Both the position numbers and the translations under genes were made by a program. From Nitrospirae bacterium MYbin3 (GTDB lineage: Bacteria; Nitrospirota; Thermodesulfovibrionia; Thermodesulfovibrionales; Dissulfurispiraceae): a DNA stretch of 64,000 nt. The notes beneath the pieces were generated by a model. The model was not told the origin of the DNA. It saw nothing but the letters and a program-made list of their open reading frames with translations, and did no database searches. Each line of letters begins with the position of its first letter. Position 1 is the stretch's first letter. The stretch covers positions 1 to 64,000 of the forward strand of contig PEAD01000008.1 of assembly GCA_002753335.1 (NCBI GenBank). Direction: 5' to 3'. Below, one piece after another: positions 3,519 to 64,000 of the stretch.

Positions 3519-3559
3519 CTGAAAGCGCGATGGGGATAAATTCCTTTTGTTCAGGACTG
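3519..3559 (+). repeat. 41-bp direct repeat, copy 1
   Basis: CTGAAAGCGCGATGGGGATAAATTCCTTTTGTTCAGGACTG; 36/41 identical to 3915-3955. Confidence 0.85.
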
Positions 3560-3585: not shown

Positions 3586-3801
3586 CTACTGAAGTCCCAG
3601 TTGCCTTTTCACTTCTTCAAGCGGAATACCCTTGCCCTGTCTCTTTTGCTCCATGGACTCCAGCAATGAAGTCTCCACCTCCGGTCGCAACTCCAGTCCG
3701 TGGTCAGGGTCGATTGCTTCCTGAATAGTCTCGCGGATAAGGGTTTTAAGCTCTCCGGCAGTCATATCGCTTATTTTTCTATCAGAGACGGCTATAGACA
3801 T
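3586..3801 (-). CDS. Putative antitoxin (RelB/ParD-type small acidic protein), no cognate toxin adjacent
   Basis: 71 aa from ATG 3801 with GGGAGG RBS; C-terminal GKGIPLEEVKRQLGL is typical of antitoxins preceding RelE/ParE toxins. Confidence 0.65.
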   Translation of the reverse strand: MSIAVSDRKISDMTAGELKTLIRETIQEAIDPDHGLELRPEVETSLLESMEQKRQGKGIPLEEVKRQLGLQ

Positions 3802-3914: not shown

Positions 3915-3991
3915 CTGATAGCGCGATAGGGATAAATTCCTTCCGTTCAGGGCTGCGTTTGGAAAGTTCTAAATGCTCGTTTTGCTACAGC
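3915..3991 (+). repeat. 41-bp direct repeat copy 2, extended; partial inverted copy of the 22251-22472 element arm
   Basis: GGATAAATTCCTTCCGTTCAGGGCTGCGTTTGGAAAGTTCTAAATGCT matches the reverse complement of 22422-22469 with 3 mismatches; similarity continues to GCTACAGC. Confidence 0.85.
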
Positions 3992-4905
3992 TTAACCTCG
4001 CCTATCTGGCTATTGCAAAAATAACAGTTGTTAAACCCCTCAAAAAAATTGTTCTTATCAATACATTCTTTTCTTTTTTCCGACAAAGAGGATACTGCAA
4101 TTCTCCCTTTGGACAGGATATCTGCCAAGCTGTCTTTTCCCAAATTGCCGAGTACTCCGCCTTTTTTTATGTCACAGCAAAAAACAGCATCGCCATTAGG
4201 GTGTATCGCAAGGTCGGCCAGATTAAGCGAACTGCAGAAATCTCTTTCGTACCCAATATACAAGGAGCTTGAGGCCGACAGCTTAATAGTGAACTTCTTT
4301 TTTATTGCCTTTATTTTATAGTAAGCCTCTTCTCTTTCTTTGTTCGATAAAACAAATCTGTCATTTTTCCCGGTCGCTATAACGCTCAAGAACCTCAAGC
4401 CTGTAGCGCCTGTTTTCTGCGCGACTTCAGCAAGCGATTCTATTTCTGAGATATTGAACCTGTTAAGGCAGGACTGCACCCTTGTTATAACGCCATGATT
4501 TGAGAAGTACGATACCGCTCCGACCGTTTTTTCATATGAACCGGGCATCCTTAACCTATCGTGAATTTCTTTGTCTGCAGAATCCAAACTGAAGGCGATA
4601 AAACCGAAGTTGGCCTTATGCGCTAATAGAGGAATATACCTCTCGGACAGAAAGCCGTTTGAAACTATGCTAAAACGCAGACCTTTATCTACTGTAAGTT
4701 CAACTAATTCGTTAAACCTCGGGTGCAGGCACGGTTCTCCACCGGTCAATACAATATTGCCATACCCAAGGTTTTTTGCCTCTTTCAAGAGCTTTTTGAA
4801 CAAGGATACATCTATTGATAACTGTTCTCTGTCTTTTAATGTAAACAAACAGAATTCGCAGTTCATATTGCAGTTGTAAGTCGTTATGAAGATTAATGAC
4901 TTCAT
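3985..4905 (-). CDS. Radical SAM protein with C-terminal SPASM/Twitch domain
   Basis: CNMNCEFC (CxxxCxxC), TGGEP, SNG, SLDS; C-terminal FC...LAIHPNGDAVFCC...LGNL...SLADI...CYFC. Confidence 0.92.
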   Translation of the reverse strand: MKSLIFITTYNCNMNCEFCLFTLKDREQLSIDVSLFKKLLKEAKNLGYGNIVLTGGEPCLHPRFNELVELTVDKGLRFSIVSNGFLSERYIPLLAHKANFGFIAFSLDSADKEIHDRLRMPGSYEKTVGAVSYFSNHGVITRVQSCLNRFNISEIESLAEVAQKTGATGLRFLSVIATGKNDRFVLSNKEREEAYYKIKAIKKKFTIKLSASSSLYIGYERDFCSSLNLADLAIHPNGDAVFCCDIKKGGVLGNLGKDSLADILSKGRIAVSSLSEKRKECIDKNNFFEGFNNCYFCNSQIGEVKL

Positions 4906-4923
4906 TCCTATATCTAGCTCGCT

Positions 4924-4963
4924 AAATAAGAAATAGCGGCGAGGGTTTTAAACTCACCGCTAT
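4924..4963 (-). terminator. Intrinsic terminator-like hairpin between beta-barrel gene and radical SAM gene
   Basis: Minus strand ATAGCGGTGAG-TTTAAAACC-CTCGCCGCTAT followed by TTCTTATTT. Confidence 0.7.
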
Positions 4964-5021
4964 CTGGACAATTAAAAACCCTTGAAGGTTTGCAACAAAT
5001 ATTTAGAATAAAAAAATATTT

Positions 5022-6269
5022 CTAAATTCCAGGATCTCCGCCGCCACCGCCACCACCAATTCCACCACCGCCGTCTCCTTCTCCTGGGTCTGCTCCGCCG
5101 CCGCCATTGTTGTTATTATTATTGTTTTGCGCTGCTGCAAGCTGCAACCTCAGCTCTTCCGCCTGCTTTGCGATCTCATTGGCCTTAAAAGTATTTGCGG
5201 ACTGAACAACACTTTCGAGTGTTGAAAGAGATATCAACACCTCGGGGTTGTCAAAAGTCTTATGCTCGGCTTTTAAGCTCTTTTTCCCTCCGGTGCCGAA
5301 ATACCATCTCAACCCGCCTATCACACTGTTGTTCTTTCCTGTTGTCGCGCTCGCAAACAAGGCAATGTCAGACTTTGAGAACTTGTACTCGGAAAACAGC
5401 TTCGCGCTTGCAGAATGCGGAAACAAAGCGCCTTCAAGACCCAAAACAAAGTTGTCCGTAAAAAAATACTTCAGGCTTCCGATGCCGAAAGCGCCTTTAT
5501 GCACAATATTTTCCCCGTTCAAAAGACCTGCCTTGCCGCCCACATGAAAATCATTATAGAACTTGGTGGCGCTAAGGCCGTAAAGCGCAGGCTTAACATC
5601 GCTGCCAAGCTCGGCATAAGAAGAGAACAACCCCAGCCTTCCGTTATTGTCCTTATAAAAGGCGTGGCCAGCCACACCGTTATATCTCATACCTGCAACA
5701 GTGCCCTTCTCAGCGTCAACCTGAAAATGCAGAGGATTATTCACAGGATTAACAACAGCGCTCACACCGCCGACGGTCAAAGTGCCTTTAGTATTTGAGA
5801 TAGCCCCAGCCTCAGTATAAACCTTGGCAGAAACATCAAAAGACTGCTCGGCCTCTGCATACGATGTCAGGGCCATCAAAGACAGGGCAGCAGCAGAGAA
5901 AGCAGCCGGCGGGCCTCTGCCCAAAACATCATTGCTACCTGGGGATGCGGCTCCGCCCCCACCAGCTGACCCGGCAGAGTGATTGGAAGCCCCGAAATAA
6001 GGCATTGATTTCAAAAAACTATCGAGATATTTAAGGAGCCTTCGGACCAACTGAGAAATGCTCTGGAAATGCAGCCACTTGTGAAGGTAAAGCCTTAGAT
6101 CGCTCCTGATCTTTTCCCTATGATTTTTAAACCGCAGGAATTCAGAGAGCTGCCTTTGGCTAAGATTGTCCGCATGGATTGACTGCTTGTCCGGCTTGAA
6201 AGCAGGAGTTGGCGAGTACTCCTTCATGGCTACAGACCCTTGTACCGGTACCGTTCCCCTATCAGGCAT
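5022..6269 (-). CDS. Putative outer-membrane beta-barrel protein with long N-terminal extension, internal signal peptide and Asn/Gly-rich C-terminal tail
   Basis: GGGGAGG RBS before ATG 6269; h-region AAFSAAALSLMALTSY-AEA (residues ~122-140); alternating amphipathic strands ending GGLRWYFG; tail N7-GGGGADPGEGDGGGGIGGGGGGGDPGI. Confidence 0.7.
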   Translation of the reverse strand: MPDRGTVPVQGSVAMKEYSPTPAFKPDKQSIHADNLSQRQLSEFLRFKNHREKIRSDLRLYLHKWLHFQSISQLVRRLLKYLDSFLKSMPYFGASNHSAGSAGGGGAASPGSNDVLGRGPPAAFSAAALSLMALTSYAEAEQSFDVSAKVYTEAGAISNTKGTLTVGGVSAVVNPVNNPLHFQVDAEKGTVAGMRYNGVAGHAFYKDNNGRLGLFSSYAELGSDVKPALYGLSATKFYNDFHVGGKAGLLNGENIVHKGAFGIGSLKYFFTDNFVLGLEGALFPHSASAKLFSEYKFSKSDIALFASATTGKNNSVIGGLRWYFGTGGKKSLKAEHKTFDNPEVLISLSTLESVVQSANTFKANEIAKQAEELRLQLAAAQNNNNNNNGGGGADPGEGDGGGGIGGGGGGGDPGI

Positions 6270-6309
6270 ATTGTGACCTCCCCCAAGGCTTTAGTATTAT
6301 CCCGCGCAA

Positions 6310-6373
6310 TATAGCACAGTGCTATAAAGAATGTAAAGCAACCTGAAATTGTCATATATAACAGGGTGCTATA
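6310..6373. promoter_or_regulatory. Two 17-bp operator-like palindromes in the divergent promoter region
   Basis: TATAGCAC-A-GTGCTATA (6310-6326, perfect) and TATAACAG-G-GTGCTATA (6357-6373). Confidence 0.7.
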
Positions 6374-6383
6374 ACATATTTTG

Positions 6384-6770
6384 ATGAAAGCGAAGAATCT
6401 GTTCGGAGGCAAAATCAGGCAGTTCCGCATCGAAGCGGGCATAACGCAGGAGGAACTGGCGCTCAGGAGCGGTCTTTCGCAGGGCTACATAAACCAGCTT
6501 GAATGCGGAAAGCGGAATTACACCCAGAAATCTATGGAGCTTATAGCAAAGGCCTTATCACAACCTGTGATAAATTTTCTTAAAGAGGACGAAGGCGGGG
6601 CTGACGCCAAGGTTGCGGATAAAACAGTCATGTATAAAACCAGAAGCGCGTATAAAAAGGATTTCCTGTCGGTGCTCAACGACCTGCCCGAAACCGTTAT
6701 CAGCCACTACCTTACGATCTTAAAAATCGAGCGCGATTTACTGAAAAGACATAGAAAAGCGGTTTTGTAA
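6384..6770 (+). CDS. XRE-family helix-turn-helix transcriptional regulator
   Basis: IRQFRIEAGITQEELALRSGLSQGYINQLECGKRN HTH_3 signature. Confidence 0.93.
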   Translation: MKAKNLFGGKIRQFRIEAGITQEELALRSGLSQGYINQLECGKRNYTQKSMELIAKALSQPVINFLKEDEGGADAKVADKTVMYKTRSAYKKDFLSVLNDLPETVISHYLTILKIERDLLKRHRKAVL

Positions 6771-6876: not shown

Positions 6877-7074
6877 ATGCAGACCGTTATTAAAAAAACA
6901 GCCAAGCATTTCAGACTGAACAATACGCTTTTGAAAAGCGCACAGACAATCCTCGGGGCCAAAACCGAAACCGAGACCATAGAGTCGGCCTTGAACGAAA
7001 TCGTGTATCAGGAAAAGATCAGGAAGTTTATAGAACAGACCGGCGGCAAGTTAAAGTTTGAGGGCCTTAATTGA
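6877..7074 (+). CDS. vapB: VapB-type antitoxin (ribbon-helix-helix-like)
   Basis: 65 aa, KHFRLNNTLLKSAQTILGAKTETETIESAL; overlaps the PIN gene start by 4 nt. Confidence 0.8.
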   Translation: MQTVIKKTAKHFRLNNTLLKSAQTILGAKTETETIESALNEIVYQEKIRKFIEQTGGKLKFEGLN

Positions 7075-7484
7075 AAGCAAAAGCGATTCTTGACACATCA
7101 TTTCTTGTTGAGCATTTCAGAAAGGAAAATGTACAAGGCTTATTTTTACAGCTAAACCAATACTATCATATAACCTTCAGCAGTGTGGTCTTGATGGAGT
7201 TGCTTTCTGGCGCGTATGACAGAAAAGAGCGCAGGCTTCTTGAACAAATCAAAAGGAACTTCAGTGTCGTGACCCCGACCGAAAAACACTGGTGGTCGAC
7301 AGGAGAGACCCTGATGAAATTACGCGCATTAAAAAAAATAGACCCTGCAAGGATGAAAGGCCTTCTTGCGGATGTTCTTATAGCTGTTTCGGCAAGGGAC
7401 ATAGGAGCAGCATTGATAACAAAAAATGCGAAAGACTTTCAACTGATCAAGGAAGTGCTGGATTTTAAGCTGATTGCAGTTTAA
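7071..7484 (+). CDS. vapC: VapC-type PIN-domain toxin
   Basis: ILDTS, VLMEL, LADVLIA, LITKNAKDF acidic PIN catalytic residues. Confidence 0.9.
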   Translation: MKAKAILDTSFLVEHFRKENVQGLFLQLNQYYHITFSSVVLMELLSGAYDRKERRLLEQIKRNFSVVTPTEKHWWSTGETLMKLRALKKIDPARMKGLLADVLIAVSARDIGAALITKNAKDFQLIKEVLDFKLIAV

Positions 7485-22250: not shown

Positions 22251-22472
22251 CAAGGATAAGTTTCTGGAGTGAATGCGAAGTTTGGGTAAAAGTTCTTTGC
22301 GAAATGCAGCGTTAAACAGCCGTGAGTGCCAAAGCACTCAATTTTGAGTACTCGGTCGAGCACCAAAGTTTTGGTGCTCTGATTTGAGGCCGAAGGCCGA
22401 GTTGCACGGCTGTAGCGAATTAGCATTTAGAACTTTCCAAACGTAGCCTTGAACGGAAGAAATTTATCCTTG
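22251..22472. repeat. Highly structured intergenic element (MITE/REP-like or ncRNA) with terminal inverted repeats
   Basis: CAAGGATAAGTTTCT / AGAAATTTATCCTTG ends; nested stems ACAGCCGTG/CACGGCTGT, GAGTGC-CAAA-GCACTC, GAGCACCAAA/TTTGGTGCTC; partial copies at 3519-3559 and 3915-3991. Confidence 0.8.
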
Positions 22473-60160: not shown

Positions 60161-63100
60161 CTATTTGTCTAGGACTTCTCTGACCTTTCTTGCTAATATG
60201 ATGGGATTGATAGGCTTTGAAATAAACTCAAACCCCTCTTTCAATATCCCTTTTCTTGAAATTATATCGTCTGTGTAGCCGCTCATAAATATTGTCTTAA
60301 TATCACTTCGGTGTTTGCTTATTTCTTCATATGCTTCTTTACCATTTTTTATCGGCATTATTACATCAAGCAGCAGAAGTTCTATCGCGTCCTTATTCTG
60401 AAGAAATTTCATCACAGCGTCCTCGCCGCTAATGGCTTCAATAATTTTATAGCCGTACTCTTGAAGGGTCAGGCTGATTATTTTTCTGACTCTTTCATCA
60501 TCCTCAGCTACAAGTATAATCTCACCTTTACCAAAAGAGATGGCCGGATCAGTTTCAACCAAAGTCTCTGTTGGTTTATTTGCCAGGGGCAGATAAATCT
60601 TGAAAGTTGTCCCCTTGCCTAGTTCGCTATACACAATGATATTGCCGCCATGCTGTTTGACTATTCCGTATACCATAGCCAGTCCCAATCCAGTGCCTTT
60701 GCCTATTCCTTTTGTTGTAAAGAATGGCTCAAATATGTTCTCCTTGGTTTTCTTGTCCATGCCTATTCCAGTATCTGATACCGTTAGCAATGCATACCGC
60801 CCGGGGCTTTCAAAAAGGTTTTCCTCAGCATAATTTTTATCTACAGTAATCTCTTCTGTCTGTATAACTAAATGTCCGCCATCAGCCATTGCATCGCGAG
60901 CATTGGTAGCGAGGTTCAATAAGACCTGCTCTATCTGCGATGAGTCAACAAGCACAGGAAGTGCATCGTTTAAAAGAATACTGTTTAGCTCTATGTCTTC
61001 TCCTATAACCCTCACAAGCATTGTGTGCATTTTCTTGACTATAGAGTTAAGGTCTACCTGTTTTAGGCTGATAGTCTGCTTTCTGCTGAAGGCAAGTAGG
61101 CTCTTAGTCAATTCTGCTGCTCTATCTGCTGAAGATAATACCTCACTTATAAAATCCCTTGCTTTTTCATCGTCCTTAATTCTCTTTTGCGCCATTGTGC
61201 CGAATCCGATGATAGCCTGCAGTATGTTGTTAAAATCATGCGCTACTCCTCCTGCAAGCGTCCCTATTGCCTCCATCTTTTGCGATTGGCGGAGCTGGTT
61301 TTCGAGATTCTTGTGCTCGGTGATATCCAGCACAATGCCTTCTATGATTAAATCATCATCACTGCGTTTTAAGACAATTGAGCGATCATTTACCCATCGC
61401 CAATCACCATTACTATTGCGAAGTCTGTAGCGAACCTCAAACATCTTGCTCTCTTCGGCATCGTTTATAGCTTGTATTACAATATTCTTGTCATCAGGAT
61501 GTATTGATTCGCTCCAGAGCATTGGATTATCGTAGAGTGTCTTTATAGAACATCCAAAAAGCTCGGCTGCTTTAGGAGAGTAGAATAGGCCGCCACGCTT
61601 AGTCGAAAAACGATAAAAGACAGCTGGCGAATTTTCCATCATAGAGCGGTATTGTTTATCTTTCTCGGTCAGTGCTTCTTCAGCCTTTTTCTGCCTTATA
61701 ACCTTAAACACACTATCCATAAGCAGCTGCAACTGGAGAATATCTATTTGGGTGTAGTCATTGCTCTTATTGGCTACGCCCACGACCGCAATAATCCTAT
61801 TATCATTGAAAACTGGAACTGTCATGTACTTGAAAAGCCGCACATGCCCTTCCGGATAACCTTTTTTAAGGGAATTTTCGGCCTCAAAGTCGTTGACAAT
61901 AATTTCTTTGCGCTGCCTTACAGCCTCTCCCCATATGCCTGTATTATCAAGTTCGTAGCAGGTTTCAGGTTTTGTAATAGAACATTCCTTCATAACATCT
62001 TTGGACCAGCTATTTAAAATAAATTGCCTTCGGTCCTCATCATAATGGTAGATATACCCTATTTTGCTTTCGGTTAGTTTTATAGCTTCTGAAAGGGCAT
62101 AGTCTAAAAAACTCTGCATGTTTTCCCATGGGTATTGCAAAATATTCACAAGACTGACAAGGCGAGTTCGGTTTTTGTTTTCTTCTTCTTCAGATCTTTT
62201 TCGCTCGGTGACATCTCTGCAGGTAGAAAGAATAAATGACCTGTTCTGAGTCCGAACATAACAGGCATTTACTTCCGTAGGGATGACTTTGCCATCCTTG
62301 GTGATATGTTCAGTATCGAAAATATAACTGCCGTATTCAGTTATTTTGGATATTCTCTCAGTCGCATACTGGGCATGTTCTGGGCTGTCTATTTGGGTCA
62401 CATGCATTGAACGCAGTTCTTCTTTGTTATATTTATACCTGATGCAGACTACTTCGTTGACATCAATAATTTCACCTTTCTCGCCTACGATGAAAATAGC
62501 GTCAGCAGATTTATCAAAAAGTGTGCGGAAATTTTCCTCGCTTGCTTTAAGATCTTCCTTTGCTTTTTCTTTTTCGAGAATCTCGGTCTCAAGGCTTTTT
62601 GTCTTTTCCTTTACCCGCTGCCTCAGTCCGGTATTAAAGAAAAATAGCACAATTATCGCAAACAATCCTGAACCTACAGAACCTGTTAGCATAAACGCCA
62701 TGTATGCTTCCTTTTCTATTGGAACTCTCATGGATTCAACAGCTCTTATTTCCCCGACCTTCTCATGAAATCCTCCCTCCAATGGATACAGTTTTCTCAA
62801 TCCAATAGGCGCATCTTCAGGATTACCATGGCAACGCATGCAGCGCTGTTCATTTTTCAGAAAGGGAATTGCATAATACAAATATTTTTCACCTTTTACA
62901 GTTACAACCTCTTCGTATTCTTTGACTGAGGGATTTTCATTGAAAAGTTTGATTAGTTTTGCCTCTCGCTCATCTGCTTTGTTAACAGGATTTCGGGGGT
63001 TGTTGGCCGCCATTTTGTAATAAATTGGTCTCATTCCGTCTTTTTGACGTTCTTCATTGTAAAGACCGTGCATTGTTCTAACTATGTAAGACGATGACAG

Positions 63101-63337
63101 AACTTGCGGATTGTAAAAATCCTTAGCAACGTATCCGTGATCCATAGCACTGAAAATGGCTGGATGCAATACTTTCTGAATGTATAAGTGAAAGCCTTTG
63201 TTCGATAATAATATGTTCATAATATCATCTTTAGCTTGGTGGATAAAGTATCTGTTGATTGCAATATGCAGGATTGCAGCAAAAATAATTGCTACAATTA
63301 ACGGCACTATAAGGAATTGTAAAATATTTCTCCTCAT
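60161..63337 (-). CDS. Hybrid sensor histidine kinase with periplasmic c-type heme (DUF3365-like) domain, PAS-GAF-PAS, HisKA, HATPase, receiver
   Basis: TM; PRNPVNKAD..E and CMRCH; AHDFNN, DTGIG, GKGTGLGL; EDD, DVIMP, SGY, KP. Confidence 0.93.
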   Translation of the reverse strand: MRRNILQFLIVPLIVAIIFAAILHIAINRYFIHQAKDDIMNILLSNKGFHLYIQKVLHPAIFSAMDHGYVAKDFYNPQVLSSSYIVRTMHGLYNEERQKDGMRPIYYKMAANNPRNPVNKADEREAKLIKLFNENPSVKEYEEVVTVKGEKYLYYAIPFLKNEQRCMRCHGNPEDAPIGLRKLYPLEGGFHEKVGEIRAVESMRVPIEKEAYMAFMLTGSVGSGLFAIIVLFFFNTGLRQRVKEKTKSLETEILEKEKAKEDLKASEENFRTLFDKSADAIFIVGEKGEIIDVNEVVCIRYKYNKEELRSMHVTQIDSPEHAQYATERISKITEYGSYIFDTEHITKDGKVIPTEVNACYVRTQNRSFILSTCRDVTERKRSEEEENKNRTRLVSLVNILQYPWENMQSFLDYALSEAIKLTESKIGYIYHYDEDRRQFILNSWSKDVMKECSITKPETCYELDNTGIWGEAVRQRKEIIVNDFEAENSLKKGYPEGHVRLFKYMTVPVFNDNRIIAVVGVANKSNDYTQIDILQLQLLMDSVFKVIRQKKAEEALTEKDKQYRSMMENSPAVFYRFSTKRGGLFYSPKAAELFGCSIKTLYDNPMLWSESIHPDDKNIVIQAINDAEESKMFEVRYRLRNSNGDWRWVNDRSIVLKRSDDDLIIEGIVLDITEHKNLENQLRQSQKMEAIGTLAGGVAHDFNNILQAIIGFGTMAQKRIKDDEKARDFISEVLSSADRAAELTKSLLAFSRKQTISLKQVDLNSIVKKMHTMLVRVIGEDIELNSILLNDALPVLVDSSQIEQVLLNLATNARDAMADGGHLVIQTEEITVDKNYAEENLFESPGRYALLTVSDTGIGMDKKTKENIFEPFFTTKGIGKGTGLGLAMVYGIVKQHGGNIIVYSELGKGTTFKIYLPLANKPTETLVETDPAISFGKGEIILVAEDDERVRKIISLTLQEYGYKIIEAISGEDAVMKFLQNKDAIELLLLDVIMPIKNGKEAYEEISKHRSDIKTIFMSGYTDDIISRKGILKEGFEFISKPINPIILARKVREVLDK

Positions 63338-63549
63338 TGGTTAATCATAAAATAATAAATATAGTTTTTCAATTGTTTTCTGTATGCAACGGTTAGACAT
63401 TTCTGAAGTTCCATATTTATGGTTGTAATATTGAGAAGATCCGATGCAGGTGAAGAACTGACAACATACAAAAGCCTTGATGACTTTTTCAAAAAATGGG
63501 CGCTTAATGCTTCAAGCAAAAACCTCCACGGGGAAAAGCTGTTGCCCCC

Positions 63550-64000
63550 TCAATGCGTTAGCCCGCCGAGTTCAATAAGATATTTTTTAAAAAGCTCCAG
63601 CCCAGCCAGATGCTTAGAATCAAACCCGTAATCAATAATCTTCCAGTAAGCAACTATATCCTGTTGCGGCATAAACAGCTTCGCAGTAGAGGCCTCTGCA
63701 ATCGCTTCAAGGTCTTCAAAAGCCTTGGTCTTAGCCTCATCAAGGCTTCTCAAAAAATCAGGGTAATGCGCTTGTTTAACAGACTCTTTTCTAGCAATCC
63801 ATAAGGCGAAAACAAACGGCAGTCCGGTATGTTCATTCCATATTTTACCGAGGTCATAAACTATCAAATCTTTATTTGTGATGCATGAAGAACCTGCTTT
63901 CAAAGCATCATCGCCGATAAGAAGAAACGCCTCTTTCCCCGAAAGCTCCGGCCTGTCTGAGCTTATCAAGCTGATTTTTTTTAAACAGTAAAACCTACGC
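63550..64000 (-). CDS. mqnA: Chorismate dehydratase MqnA (futalosine pathway), 5' part off window
   Basis: LLIGDDAL, YDLG..W...TGLPFVFALW; frame open to the window edge. Confidence 0.88.
   Translation of the reverse strand, partial: RRFYCLKKISLISSDRPELSGKEAFLLIGDDALKAGSSCITNKDLIVYDLGKIWNEHTGLPFVFALWIARKESVKQAHYPDFLRSLDEAKTKAFEDLEAIAEASTAKLFMPQQDIVAYWKIIDYGFDSKHLAGLELFKKYLIELGGLTH

What the first reader, a model, noticed from the sequence alone, without database searches (positions are those of the whole stretch)
3985..6770. Candidate new system: XRE-regulated outer-membrane beta-barrel with a Gly/Asn tail paired with a radical SAM/SPASM enzyme
Seen: an XRE regulator is divergent from a two-gene unit. 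The first gene encodes a 415-aa protein with a signal-peptide-like segment, amphipathic beta-strands ending GGLRWYFG-x4-KSLKAEHK-x-FDNP, a helical stalk and a low-complexity peptide tail. The second is a radical SAM gene with a SPASM/Twitch domain and no N-terminal RRE (CxxxCxxC at residue 11). A terminator-like hairpin lies between them. Established: SPASM/Twitch enzymes often modify ribosomal peptides or proteins encoded next to them (AlbA, PqqE, anSME, GrrM), and N-terminal barrel plus C-terminal passenger is the type Ve (inverse autotransporter) layout. Inference: this may be a surface-displayed, enzymatically modified peptide, i.e. a RiPP-like core fused to its own export barrel. I do not recognise a described system with this layout. 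Alternative: the enzyme is a BtrN-like sugar/small-molecule dehydrogenase and the pairing is incidental.
Basis: partly seen in the sequence, partly recalled or inferred. Interest (0 to 1): 0.85.

Follow-up and report, generated by a model that had tools for sequence, protein, structure and literature searches.

The report
Surface barrel with recruited radical-SAM enzyme
An intimin-like outer-membrane barrel with a glycine-rich tail sits next to an unusual radical SAM enzyme that likely modifies that tail; the pair occurs in this genome only, but the enzyme's relatives are repeatedly fused to or beside other exported proteins with similar tails.

Summary
The three genes are real. The barrel is a predicted 12-stranded outer-membrane barrel whose barrel-plus-linker matches intimin/invasin (Z 18.3), but it has no folded passenger.

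The pairing is not a conserved system. 0 of 8 other barrel loci examined have a radical SAM neighbour. The sister species keeps XRE plus barrel at the same site (88% identical) without the enzyme.

The enzyme is neither BtrN-like nor a two-cluster SPASM protein. It belongs to an RRE-less, one-auxiliary-cluster (twitch) subfamily with five conserved C-terminal cysteines, including a Cys-Cys pair. Its best relative (45%) and three others are fused to a signal-like segment plus a protein with a Gly/Asp/Ser/Asn-rich stretch. 3 of 15 metagenome loci have such a neighbour (0 of 517 control ORFs). A sister clade sits in lasso-type RiPP clusters.

Best reading (0.45): the enzyme was recruited here and modifies the tail before export, likely by epimerisation. 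An incidental insertion (0.35) is the main rival.

The barrel's 125-aa N-terminal extension is a separate mobile module found on unrelated exported proteins without this enzyme.

The parts
6381..6770 (+). XRE-family helix-turn-helix regulator, divergent from the barrel gene
   Evidence: Pfam HTH_3 E 5.8e-12; nearly identical gene in the same position in sister species G001
6356..6374 (.). operator-like imperfect palindrome, copy 2
   Evidence: repeat family D7, 84% to copy 1; unchanged in G001; binding by the XRE protein is inferred
6309..6327 (.). operator-like perfect palindrome, copy 1, overlapping a sigma-70-like promoter match (6337 to 6308, minus strand)
   Evidence: function inferred
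6277..6284 (-). Shine-Dalgarno sequence in front of the ATG at 6269
   Evidence: seen in the sequence; same SD and ATG in G001, so the long N-terminus is probably translated
5895..6269 (-). N-terminal 'KPDK' module (residues 1-125), inserted in frame ahead of the signal h-region
   Evidence: absent in G001 and skipped by a contig joint in run X1; homologues 38-39% identical at the N-termini of unrelated proteins in G053 and G037
5850..5906 (-). signal-peptide h-region and A-x-A cleavage-like site (residues 122-140)
   Evidence: most hydrophobic 13-mer of the N-terminus; aligns with the short signal of G001; no signal predictor was run
5295..5840 (-). predicted 12-stranded outer-membrane beta-barrel (residues 144-325)
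   Evidence: AlphaFold2 model, mean pLDDT 83, 12 strands; matches to KdgM, NanC, intimin, invasin
5130..5294 (-). linker with the family motif KSLKxxH..DxP and helical stalk (residues 326-380)
   Evidence: motif invariant or nearly so in 20 family members; aligns with the intimin/invasin linker up to about residue 357
5022..5129 (-). Asn/Gly/Asp-rich C-terminal tail (residues 381-415), candidate substrate
   Evidence: one of only 5 of 2521 ORFs of the genome with such a tail; the G001 tail is also Gly-rich but has no Asp
4933..4963 (-). terminator-like hairpin between the barrel and radical SAM genes
   Evidence: seen in the sequence; not called by the scan
3985..4905 (-). RRE-less radical SAM enzyme with a twitch-type domain: C12/C16/C19, and C224, C243, C244, C294, C297

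Best explanation
The XRE gene and the barrel gene form a cassette shared with the sister species, and in this genome a twitch-type radical SAM enzyme lies behind the barrel and likely modifies the barrel's Gly/Asp/Asn tail in the cytoplasm before export. Shown: the gene layout; the cassette without the enzyme in relatives; the enzyme's five conserved C-terminal cysteines; its relatives' fusions to and adjacency with exported proteins that have such tails. Predicted from models: a 12-stranded barrel with an intimin-like linker, which would thread the stalk and tail to the cell surface as a mini type Ve passenger. Inferred: four cysteines bind one auxiliary [4Fe-4S] cluster, and the spare cysteine of the C243-C244 pair would return a hydrogen to a peptide C-alpha radical, as Cys223 does in EpeE, giving D-residues at non-glycine positions of the tail. 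The chemistry is the weakest step (about one in three within this explanation); cross-linking or backbone cleavage remain open.
For: (1) Top hit P0022 (45% identity) groups with the window's enzyme (support 0.957). It is a fusion: enzyme, lipobox-like hydrophobic segment, TPR/CsgG, an Asp-Asp-Gly4 stretch, then a Hint domain. (2) Three more fusions of that plan: P0046, P0087, P0102. That is 4 of the 6 long homologues read in full. They lie at three tree positions, since P0087 and P0102 are kin. (3) Of 15 true family loci from metagenomes, L198 and L224 pass the tail test at the strict threshold and L166 at the loosest (0.40 Gly, 0.53 GDNST); 0 of 517 control ORFs pass at any of three thresholds. 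(4) Only 5 of 2521 ORFs of this genome have such a tail, and the barrel's is the most Gly-rich. (5) A sister clade (support 0.999) lies in RiPP clusters with PqqD, HprK-like and lasso-type precursor genes. (6) Cys conservation: C224 124 of 125, C243 124, C244 115, C294 124, C297 123. EpeE has one auxiliary cluster and Cys223 as H donor (PMC13012085, passages). (7) Among the 50 rows shown, only the intimin and invasin chains align past the barrel to model residue 219.
Against: 0 of 8 other barrel loci have a radical SAM neighbour, and no family enzyme locus checked has a barrel neighbour. G001 keeps a Gly-rich tail with no subfamily enzyme in a 99% complete genome (best 104 bits against 400). 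9 of 15 metagenome loci show no candidate substrate or are too short to tell, 1 is borderline (L150) and 2 have short peptides instead. L198, L224, L150 and P0046 are one clade. The control ORFs are not taxon-matched. The fusions have no genomic context and could be read-throughs. A hairpin separates the two genes, and the site is a hot spot of unrelated insertions. The tails share composition, not a sequence motif. Foldseek shows no special closeness to EpeE (rank 50, TM 0.61; SuiB and SkfB 0.70-0.71). That EpeE's donor cysteine sits next to a cluster ligand is recalled, not tested.
Confidence: 0.45

Rival explanations
1. Incidental neighbours: the enzyme is an orphan gene that landed in an insertion hot spot behind an independent XRE-barrel cassette and does not act on the barrel.
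For: Between the same flanking genes G001 carries a different set of inserts and no enzyme. A dispersed repeat lies just downstream of the enzyme. A hairpin separates the genes. 0 of 8 barrel relatives have the enzyme. Several family members are orphans in housekeeping contexts (L156, L162, L125, L221, L210).
Against: The chance that a neighbour has such a tail is about 0.2% per gene in this genome. The closest relative is fused to an exported protein with an Asp-Gly4 stretch. The genes share a strand, 116 bp apart.
Confidence: 0.35
2. The enzyme is a peptide or protein maturase, but its substrate is encoded elsewhere: a short RiPP precursor, or another Gly-tailed protein such as the ORFs on contigs C14 and C41.
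For: The sister clade and loci L157 and L206 pair the family with short precursors. Two other ORFs of the genome end in Gly-rich tails. The assembly is 93.7% complete.
Against: No PqqD or B2-type peptidase family match in the genome. No convincing lasso-type precursor among short ORFs, and none next to the gene.
Confidence: 0.12
3. The enzyme acts on a small molecule or sugar (BtrN, BlsE or viperin-like chemistry).
For: BlsE and viperin are among the closer solved relatives by profile and fold. L156 follows a glycosyltransferase-like gene (by eye), and P0096 is fused to a GT2 domain.
Against: All named-family scores are far below cut-off (BlsE 82 of 400, viperin 68 of 180). No sugar or nucleotide pathway recurs around the family loci read. 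Peptide and exported-protein contexts do recur.
Confidence: 0.08

Closest known systems
Type Ve inverse autotransporters (intimin 4E1S, invasin 4E1T)
   Same: Predicted 12-stranded N-terminal barrel followed by a linker. Z 18.3, rmsd 2.6 A over 195 residues to intimin; Z 17.7 over 198 residues to invasin.
   Different: 9% identity; no IAT_beta Pfam hit in 20 family members; no Ig-like passenger, only a stalk of about 50 residues and a 35-residue tail.
KdgM/NanC monomeric porins
   Same: Best barrel match: Z 19.9, rmsd 1.7 A over 164 residues.
   Different: The match stops at the last strand. This family has a conserved C-terminal linker motif that porins lack.
EpeE/YydG epimerase (epipeptides)
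   Same: RRE-less radical SAM enzyme, one auxiliary cluster in a twitch-type domain, a spare cysteine (PMC13012085, passages).
   Different: 15% identity and TM 0.61, no closer than other maturases. EpeE acts on a 49-residue precursor, not on a membrane protein tail.
rSAM/lipoprotein system (TIGR04133; partner TIGR04134 recalled) and spliceases (PlpX; PMC11002830, passages)
   Same: Radical SAM enzyme paired with an exported protein that is thought to be its substrate (the lipoprotein pairing is recalled).
   Different: Score 63 against cut-off 425. Those are SPASM enzymes; the Tyr-Gly target motif (recalled) is absent from this tail.
SynChlorMet ScmF / lasso-type PqqD-HprK cassettes
   Same: ScmF is the best NCBIfam score (96 bits). 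The sister clade has PqqD, HprK-like and precursor genes.
   Different: Cut-off is 400. This genome has no PqqD or B2 match.
Cyclopropyl synthases TvgB/TigE (PMC10878394, passages)
   Same: Act on Val/Ile in Gly-rich repeats. The L166 neighbour ends in two TVGG repeats and the barrel tail has one IGG.
   Different: The defining GYW motif, RRE and two-cluster SPASM motif are absent.

Membership tests
Type Ve inverse autotransporter | 12-stranded N-terminal beta-barrel after a signal peptide | tested here: met
   AlphaFold2 model; structural match; signal judged by hydrophobicity only
Type Ve inverse autotransporter | linker after the last strand that runs through the pore | tested here: inconclusive
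   aligns with the intimin/invasin linker to model residue 219, but pLDDT falls to about 55 there and the path was not inspected
Type Ve inverse autotransporter | IAT_beta (PF11924) sequence signature | tested here: not met
   0 of 20 members at E 0.1; only a 0.91 feature-similarity row in the Atlas
Type Ve inverse autotransporter | folded C-terminal passenger of Ig-like domains | tested here: not met
   the protein ends 90 residues after the barrel; family tails are short and variable
Type Ve inverse autotransporter | surface exposure of the C-terminus | not testable with these tools
   needs tag accessibility on whole cells
Two-cluster SPASM maturases (AlbA, PqqE, anSME, GrrM type) | CX2CX5CX3C motif and seven or more auxiliary cysteines | tested here: not met
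   motif absent in 125 of 125; five conserved C-terminal cysteines
Twitch-domain radical SAM enzymes | CxxxCxxC plus ligands for a single auxiliary cluster | tested here: met
   cluster binding itself inferred
EpeE-type epimerase | spare H-donor cysteine beside the auxiliary cluster | tested here: inconclusive
   C243-C244 pair conserved (124 and 115 of 125); residue equivalence to EpeE Cys223 not shown
EpeE-type epimerase | sequence or fold closest to EpeE | tested here: inconclusive
   EpeE listed but at rank 50, TM 0.61, and below SkfB and BlsE by profile
EpeE-type epimerase | L-to-D conversion of peptide residues | not testable with these tools
   needs a D2O assay
Cyclopropyl synthases (TvgB/TigE) | GYW motif | tested here: not met
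   0 of 125; defining status from PMC10878394
rSAM/lipoprotein system TIGR04133 | HMM score over cut-off | tested here: not met
   62.9 against 425
Classical RiPP cluster | short precursor, RRE/PqqD and leader peptidase | tested here: not met
   (assembly 93.7% complete)
   0 of 8 barrel loci; no barrel hit in 119 metagenome loci or 4 genome regions

The most novel reading that the evidence does not exclude
An undescribed subfamily of leaderless twitch radical SAM enzymes is a portable 'tail editor'. It is recruited in cis, by fusion in front of the signal peptide or by adjacency, to unrelated exported proteins (lipoproteins, Tat substrates, a Hint-domain protein and here a passenger-less inverse autotransporter). 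It installs D-amino acids or cross-links in their Gly/Asp/Asn tails, so that this bacterium displays a radically modified peptide on its own export barrel.
Probability: 0.3. Interest if true: 0.85.

Novelty: new variant of a known kind. Interest (0 to 1): 0.55.

Why it matters
Radical SAM peptide chemistry is known almost only from short precursors with leaders and RRE domains. A leaderless enzyme family that edits low-complexity tails of exported proteins would extend it to cell-surface proteins of anaerobes. It would give a leader-independent modifying tool, and the single-chain fusions (P0046, P0087) make the idea testable with one gene. The work also outlines three things that match no family above cut-off in the libraries scanned or were found only by direct search: a widespread passenger-less intimin-like barrel family, a lasso-type RiPP clade with Phe-Phe-Gly cores, and a mobile N-terminal module.

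Tried and rejected
1. N-terminal extension as the enzyme's leader or docking domain: rejected as obligate. Homologues sit on unrelated proteins in G053 and G037, which lack the subfamily (best 100 and 93 bits). The extension also has no similarity to the enzyme profile. A check of the wider regions L251 and L252 did not run; one search shows no radical SAM match on G053 contig C21 and none within 50 kb on G037 contig C19.

2. A later start at Met90: rejected. There is no SD there, and the SD and ATG at 6269 are shared with G001.

3. Cyclopropyl synthase: no GYW motif.

4. Enzyme as a remnant of a lasso-type cluster: no PqqD or B2 match in the genome, and it lies in a separate clade.

5. Searches that found nothing useful: single-sequence barrel searches; PDB sequence search for the barrel; viral contigs, only distant radical SAM hits; plasmids, only distant enzymes; PDB search with the C-terminal domain alone; maximum-likelihood tree timed out, so FastTree was used (midpoint root).

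6. Reads: no RNA holder was listed. Four DNA runs hold XRE and barrel pieces and give no cover on the enzyme gene; lack of cover proves nothing.

The wide structural search was not run.

8. Earlier-scan look-ups returned nothing.

9. Literature: 'radical SAM' with 'inverse autotransporter' gave 0 papers; the five-term lasso/HPr kinase query gave 0. Listings showed no description of this subfamily. The library lacks most subscription journals and no supplements were read, so a description may exist in print.
Full report
Observation. An XRE gene (6381-6770, +; HTH_3 E 5.8e-12) is divergent from a 415-aa ORF without any Pfam or NCBIfam match (5022-6269, -). That is followed after 116 bp by a 306-aa radical SAM gene (3985-4905, -) with a partial SPASM match over residues 231-270. 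No named radical SAM family comes near its cut-off (best ScmF, 96 of 400). Two operator-like palindromes lie between the divergent genes. A hairpin with a T-rich run lies at 4933-4963 (seen, not called by the scan).

The barrel. A profile of three Nitrospirota sequences found 17 relatives of 264-324 aa, at 20-35% identity. They share a signal-like N-terminus, G-x-R-Y-Y-F-G, KSLKxRHRxDDP and short, very variable tails. AlphaFold2 on this alignment gives 12 strands and two helices for residues 139-365 (mean pLDDT 83; the last 25 residues are poor). KdgM is the best barrel match (Z 19.9, rmsd 1.7 A, 164 residues). Intimin (Z 18.3, rmsd 2.6 A, 195 residues) and invasin (Z 17.7, 198 residues) are the only chains among the 50 rows shown that also align the segment after the last strand (Foldseek TM 0.57 to intimin). 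So it works like a passenger-less inverse autotransporter (inference). It is not a member of the IAT_beta family by sequence (0 of 20).

The pairing is not conserved. The sister species G001 (99% complete) has the XRE gene, both palindromes and the barrel (88% identical) at the same chromosomal site. It has other inserts around them and no enzyme. Its best match to the subfamily profile is 104 bits against 400 for the window. A radical SAM profile found nothing in seven barrel regions from six genomes (L013 repeats G010, and L014 is short on one side). G254 was read by eye over 1.5 kb each side and a Roseibium plasmid by its annotation. That makes 0 of 8. A ninth locus (L028) has no annotation and was not examined. 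In 401 genomes of the phylum the barrel profile matched 4.

The N-terminal extension. G001 has the same SD and ATG but a short signal peptide, so about 111 codons are inserted in the window's gene. A contig of run X1 joins across the same stretch. I first read this as a leader acquired with the enzyme. A search of 301 genomes of the class found two strong homologues, G053 (39%) and G037 (38%), and two weak matches with stops. Both strong ones are N-terminal parts of unrelated proteins that have a signal-like segment further on. The DNA alignment keeps the MKxY and KPDK codons with some third-position changes (by eye). Neither genome has the enzyme subfamily. The module is therefore independent of the enzyme and is a separate lead.

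The enzyme. 105 cluster representatives match at E 1e-30 or better, counting the query. Most are about 300 aa with no RRE. In 125 aligned sequences C224, C243, C244, C294 and C297 are kept in 124, 124, 115, 124 and 123. No sequence has the two-cluster SPASM motif or the GYW motif of cyclopropyl synthases (GYW as defining motif: PMC10878394, passages). Five cysteines for one cluster leave one spare. In EpeE a single auxiliary cluster and an H-donating Cys223 serve epimerisation (PMC13012085, passages). That its neighbour Cys222 is a ligand is my recollection and was not in the passages. The model (pLDDT 91) is closest to SuiB, SkfB, viperin and BlsE (TM 0.68-0.71), with EpeE at rank 50. The epimerase reading therefore rests on the cysteine pattern alone.

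Contexts of the enzyme family. I scanned 11 long homologues against Pfam and read six in full. Four (P0022, P0046, P0087, P0102) continue directly into a hydrophobic signal-like segment and a protein with a Gly/Asp/Ser/Asn-rich stretch at or near the end. In P0022 this stretch precedes a Hint domain. P0059 and P0071 do not fit this plan. Others among the 11 are double radical SAM proteins, a PqqD fusion and a GT2 fusion. P0022 is the best hit (45%) and shares a clade with the window's enzyme (support 0.957). That clade also holds L221, which has no candidate substrate in view.

A motif scan of part of the metagenome collection gave 119 matches, of which 15 encode the subfamily and none a barrel. 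L198 and L224 have a convergent neighbour ending in an Asn/Asp/Gly-rich tail. L166 has an upstream gene in two frames, with a Tat-like signal in the first and a Gly-rich end in the second. L150 lies between two lipoprotein-like genes with milder tails that fail the test. L157 and L206 have short precursor-like ORFs (Nif11-like and lasso-like, labels by eye). Nine show nothing of the kind or are cut short. None of 517 ORFs from the chance-match loci passed the tail test, and 5 of 2521 ORFs pass in the window's genome. The controls are not taxon-matched, and L150, L198, L224 and P0046 are kin. Counting clades, the association appears four times outside this genome (P0022; P0087/P0102; the P0046 clade; L166).

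A sister clade of 13 sequences (support 0.999) was found in 4 of 400 phylum genomes, 5 of 250 class genomes and 2 of 301 genomes of the phylum of G416. Most of the loci read hold PqqD and HprK-like genes. B2-peptidase-like and nucleotidyltransferase-like genes were recognised by eye. Precursors with F/YxxPxL leaders and Phe-Phe-Gly cores were seen in L019-L022, L234 and L238; none was seen in the stretches read for L232, L233, L236 and L237. The window's genome has no PqqD or B2 match.

Reading. The XRE protein likely controls the barrel gene through the two palindromes. The barrel likely carries its stalk and tail to the surface. The enzyme is an accessory present in this lineage only, and its family's habits make the tail the likeliest substrate (0.45). 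An incidental insertion at this variable site (0.35), a substrate in trans (0.12) and a small-molecule substrate (0.08) are the rivals.

Novelty. The two combined literature searches gave no paper, and the other five listings showed no description of this subfamily. I saw passages of four papers (PMC10878394, PMC13012085, PMC11002830, and bioRxiv 10.1101/2023.11.02.564894, which proved irrelevant) and no supplements. Radical SAM enzymes paired with exported proteins have a precedent in the TIGR04133 system (details recalled). I therefore rate this a new variant of a known kind. The proposed barrel-enzyme 'system' is a one-off, but the enzyme family behind it deserves follow-up.

Noticed in passing
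window 5895-6269; L247 1474-1850; L248 1500-1860: A roughly 120-residue module (MKxY...KPDK...GGGG...GRxPP) stands in frame at the N-terminus of three unrelated exported proteins in three genomes of the same order. It has no Pfam match. In G053 and G037 the next gene is a cysteine-rich repeat protein.
   Followed up: partly
L019-L022, L232-L238: Lasso-type RiPP clusters without an evident lasso cyclase in the stretches read: precursor with F/YxxPxL leader and Phe-Phe-Gly core, HprK-like kinase, twitch radical SAM with a Cys-Cys pair, PqqD, B2-like peptidase, nucleotidyltransferase-like gene. No NCBIfam model over cut-off for the enzymes scanned.
   Followed up: partly
P0022 (no coordinates): Radical SAM - lipobox - TPR - CsgG - TPR - Gly4 - Hint domain fusion ending in four glycines; autoprocessing would expose the Gly-rich stretch as a new C-terminus.
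   Followed up: no
window 3519-3559, 3915-3991, 22254-22469: A dispersed non-coding repeat with many copies over the genome (contigs C1, C5, C35, C39, C44, C45, C52 and others) and in G001, often at variable sites; MITE- or REP-like.
   Followed up: no
window 3586-3801 and 6877-7484: An orphan RelB-like antitoxin ORF between two repeat copies, and a VapBC-like pair on the other side. G001 has a Fic-like gene and a ParE/Phd-like pair at the same site instead (labels by eye).
   Followed up: partly
L007-L012 (G402, G254): The barrel orthologues of two genomes of genus g10 are frameshifted, while G010 is intact; decay or assembly error.
   Followed up: no
L206 76-252; L157 4631-5383: Candidate precursors beside subfamily enzymes: a 58-aa peptide with a lasso-like leader and Cys-rich core, and a Nif11-like peptide in a cluster with a second radical SAM-like gene.
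   Followed up: no
G000 C14 16546-17568 and C41 27229-28137: Two other proteins of this genome end in Gly-rich tails (one with Cys pairs); possible substrates in trans.
   Followed up: no
window 62000-64000: GC falls to 39%, the lowest in the window; possibly the start of another island.
   Followed up: no
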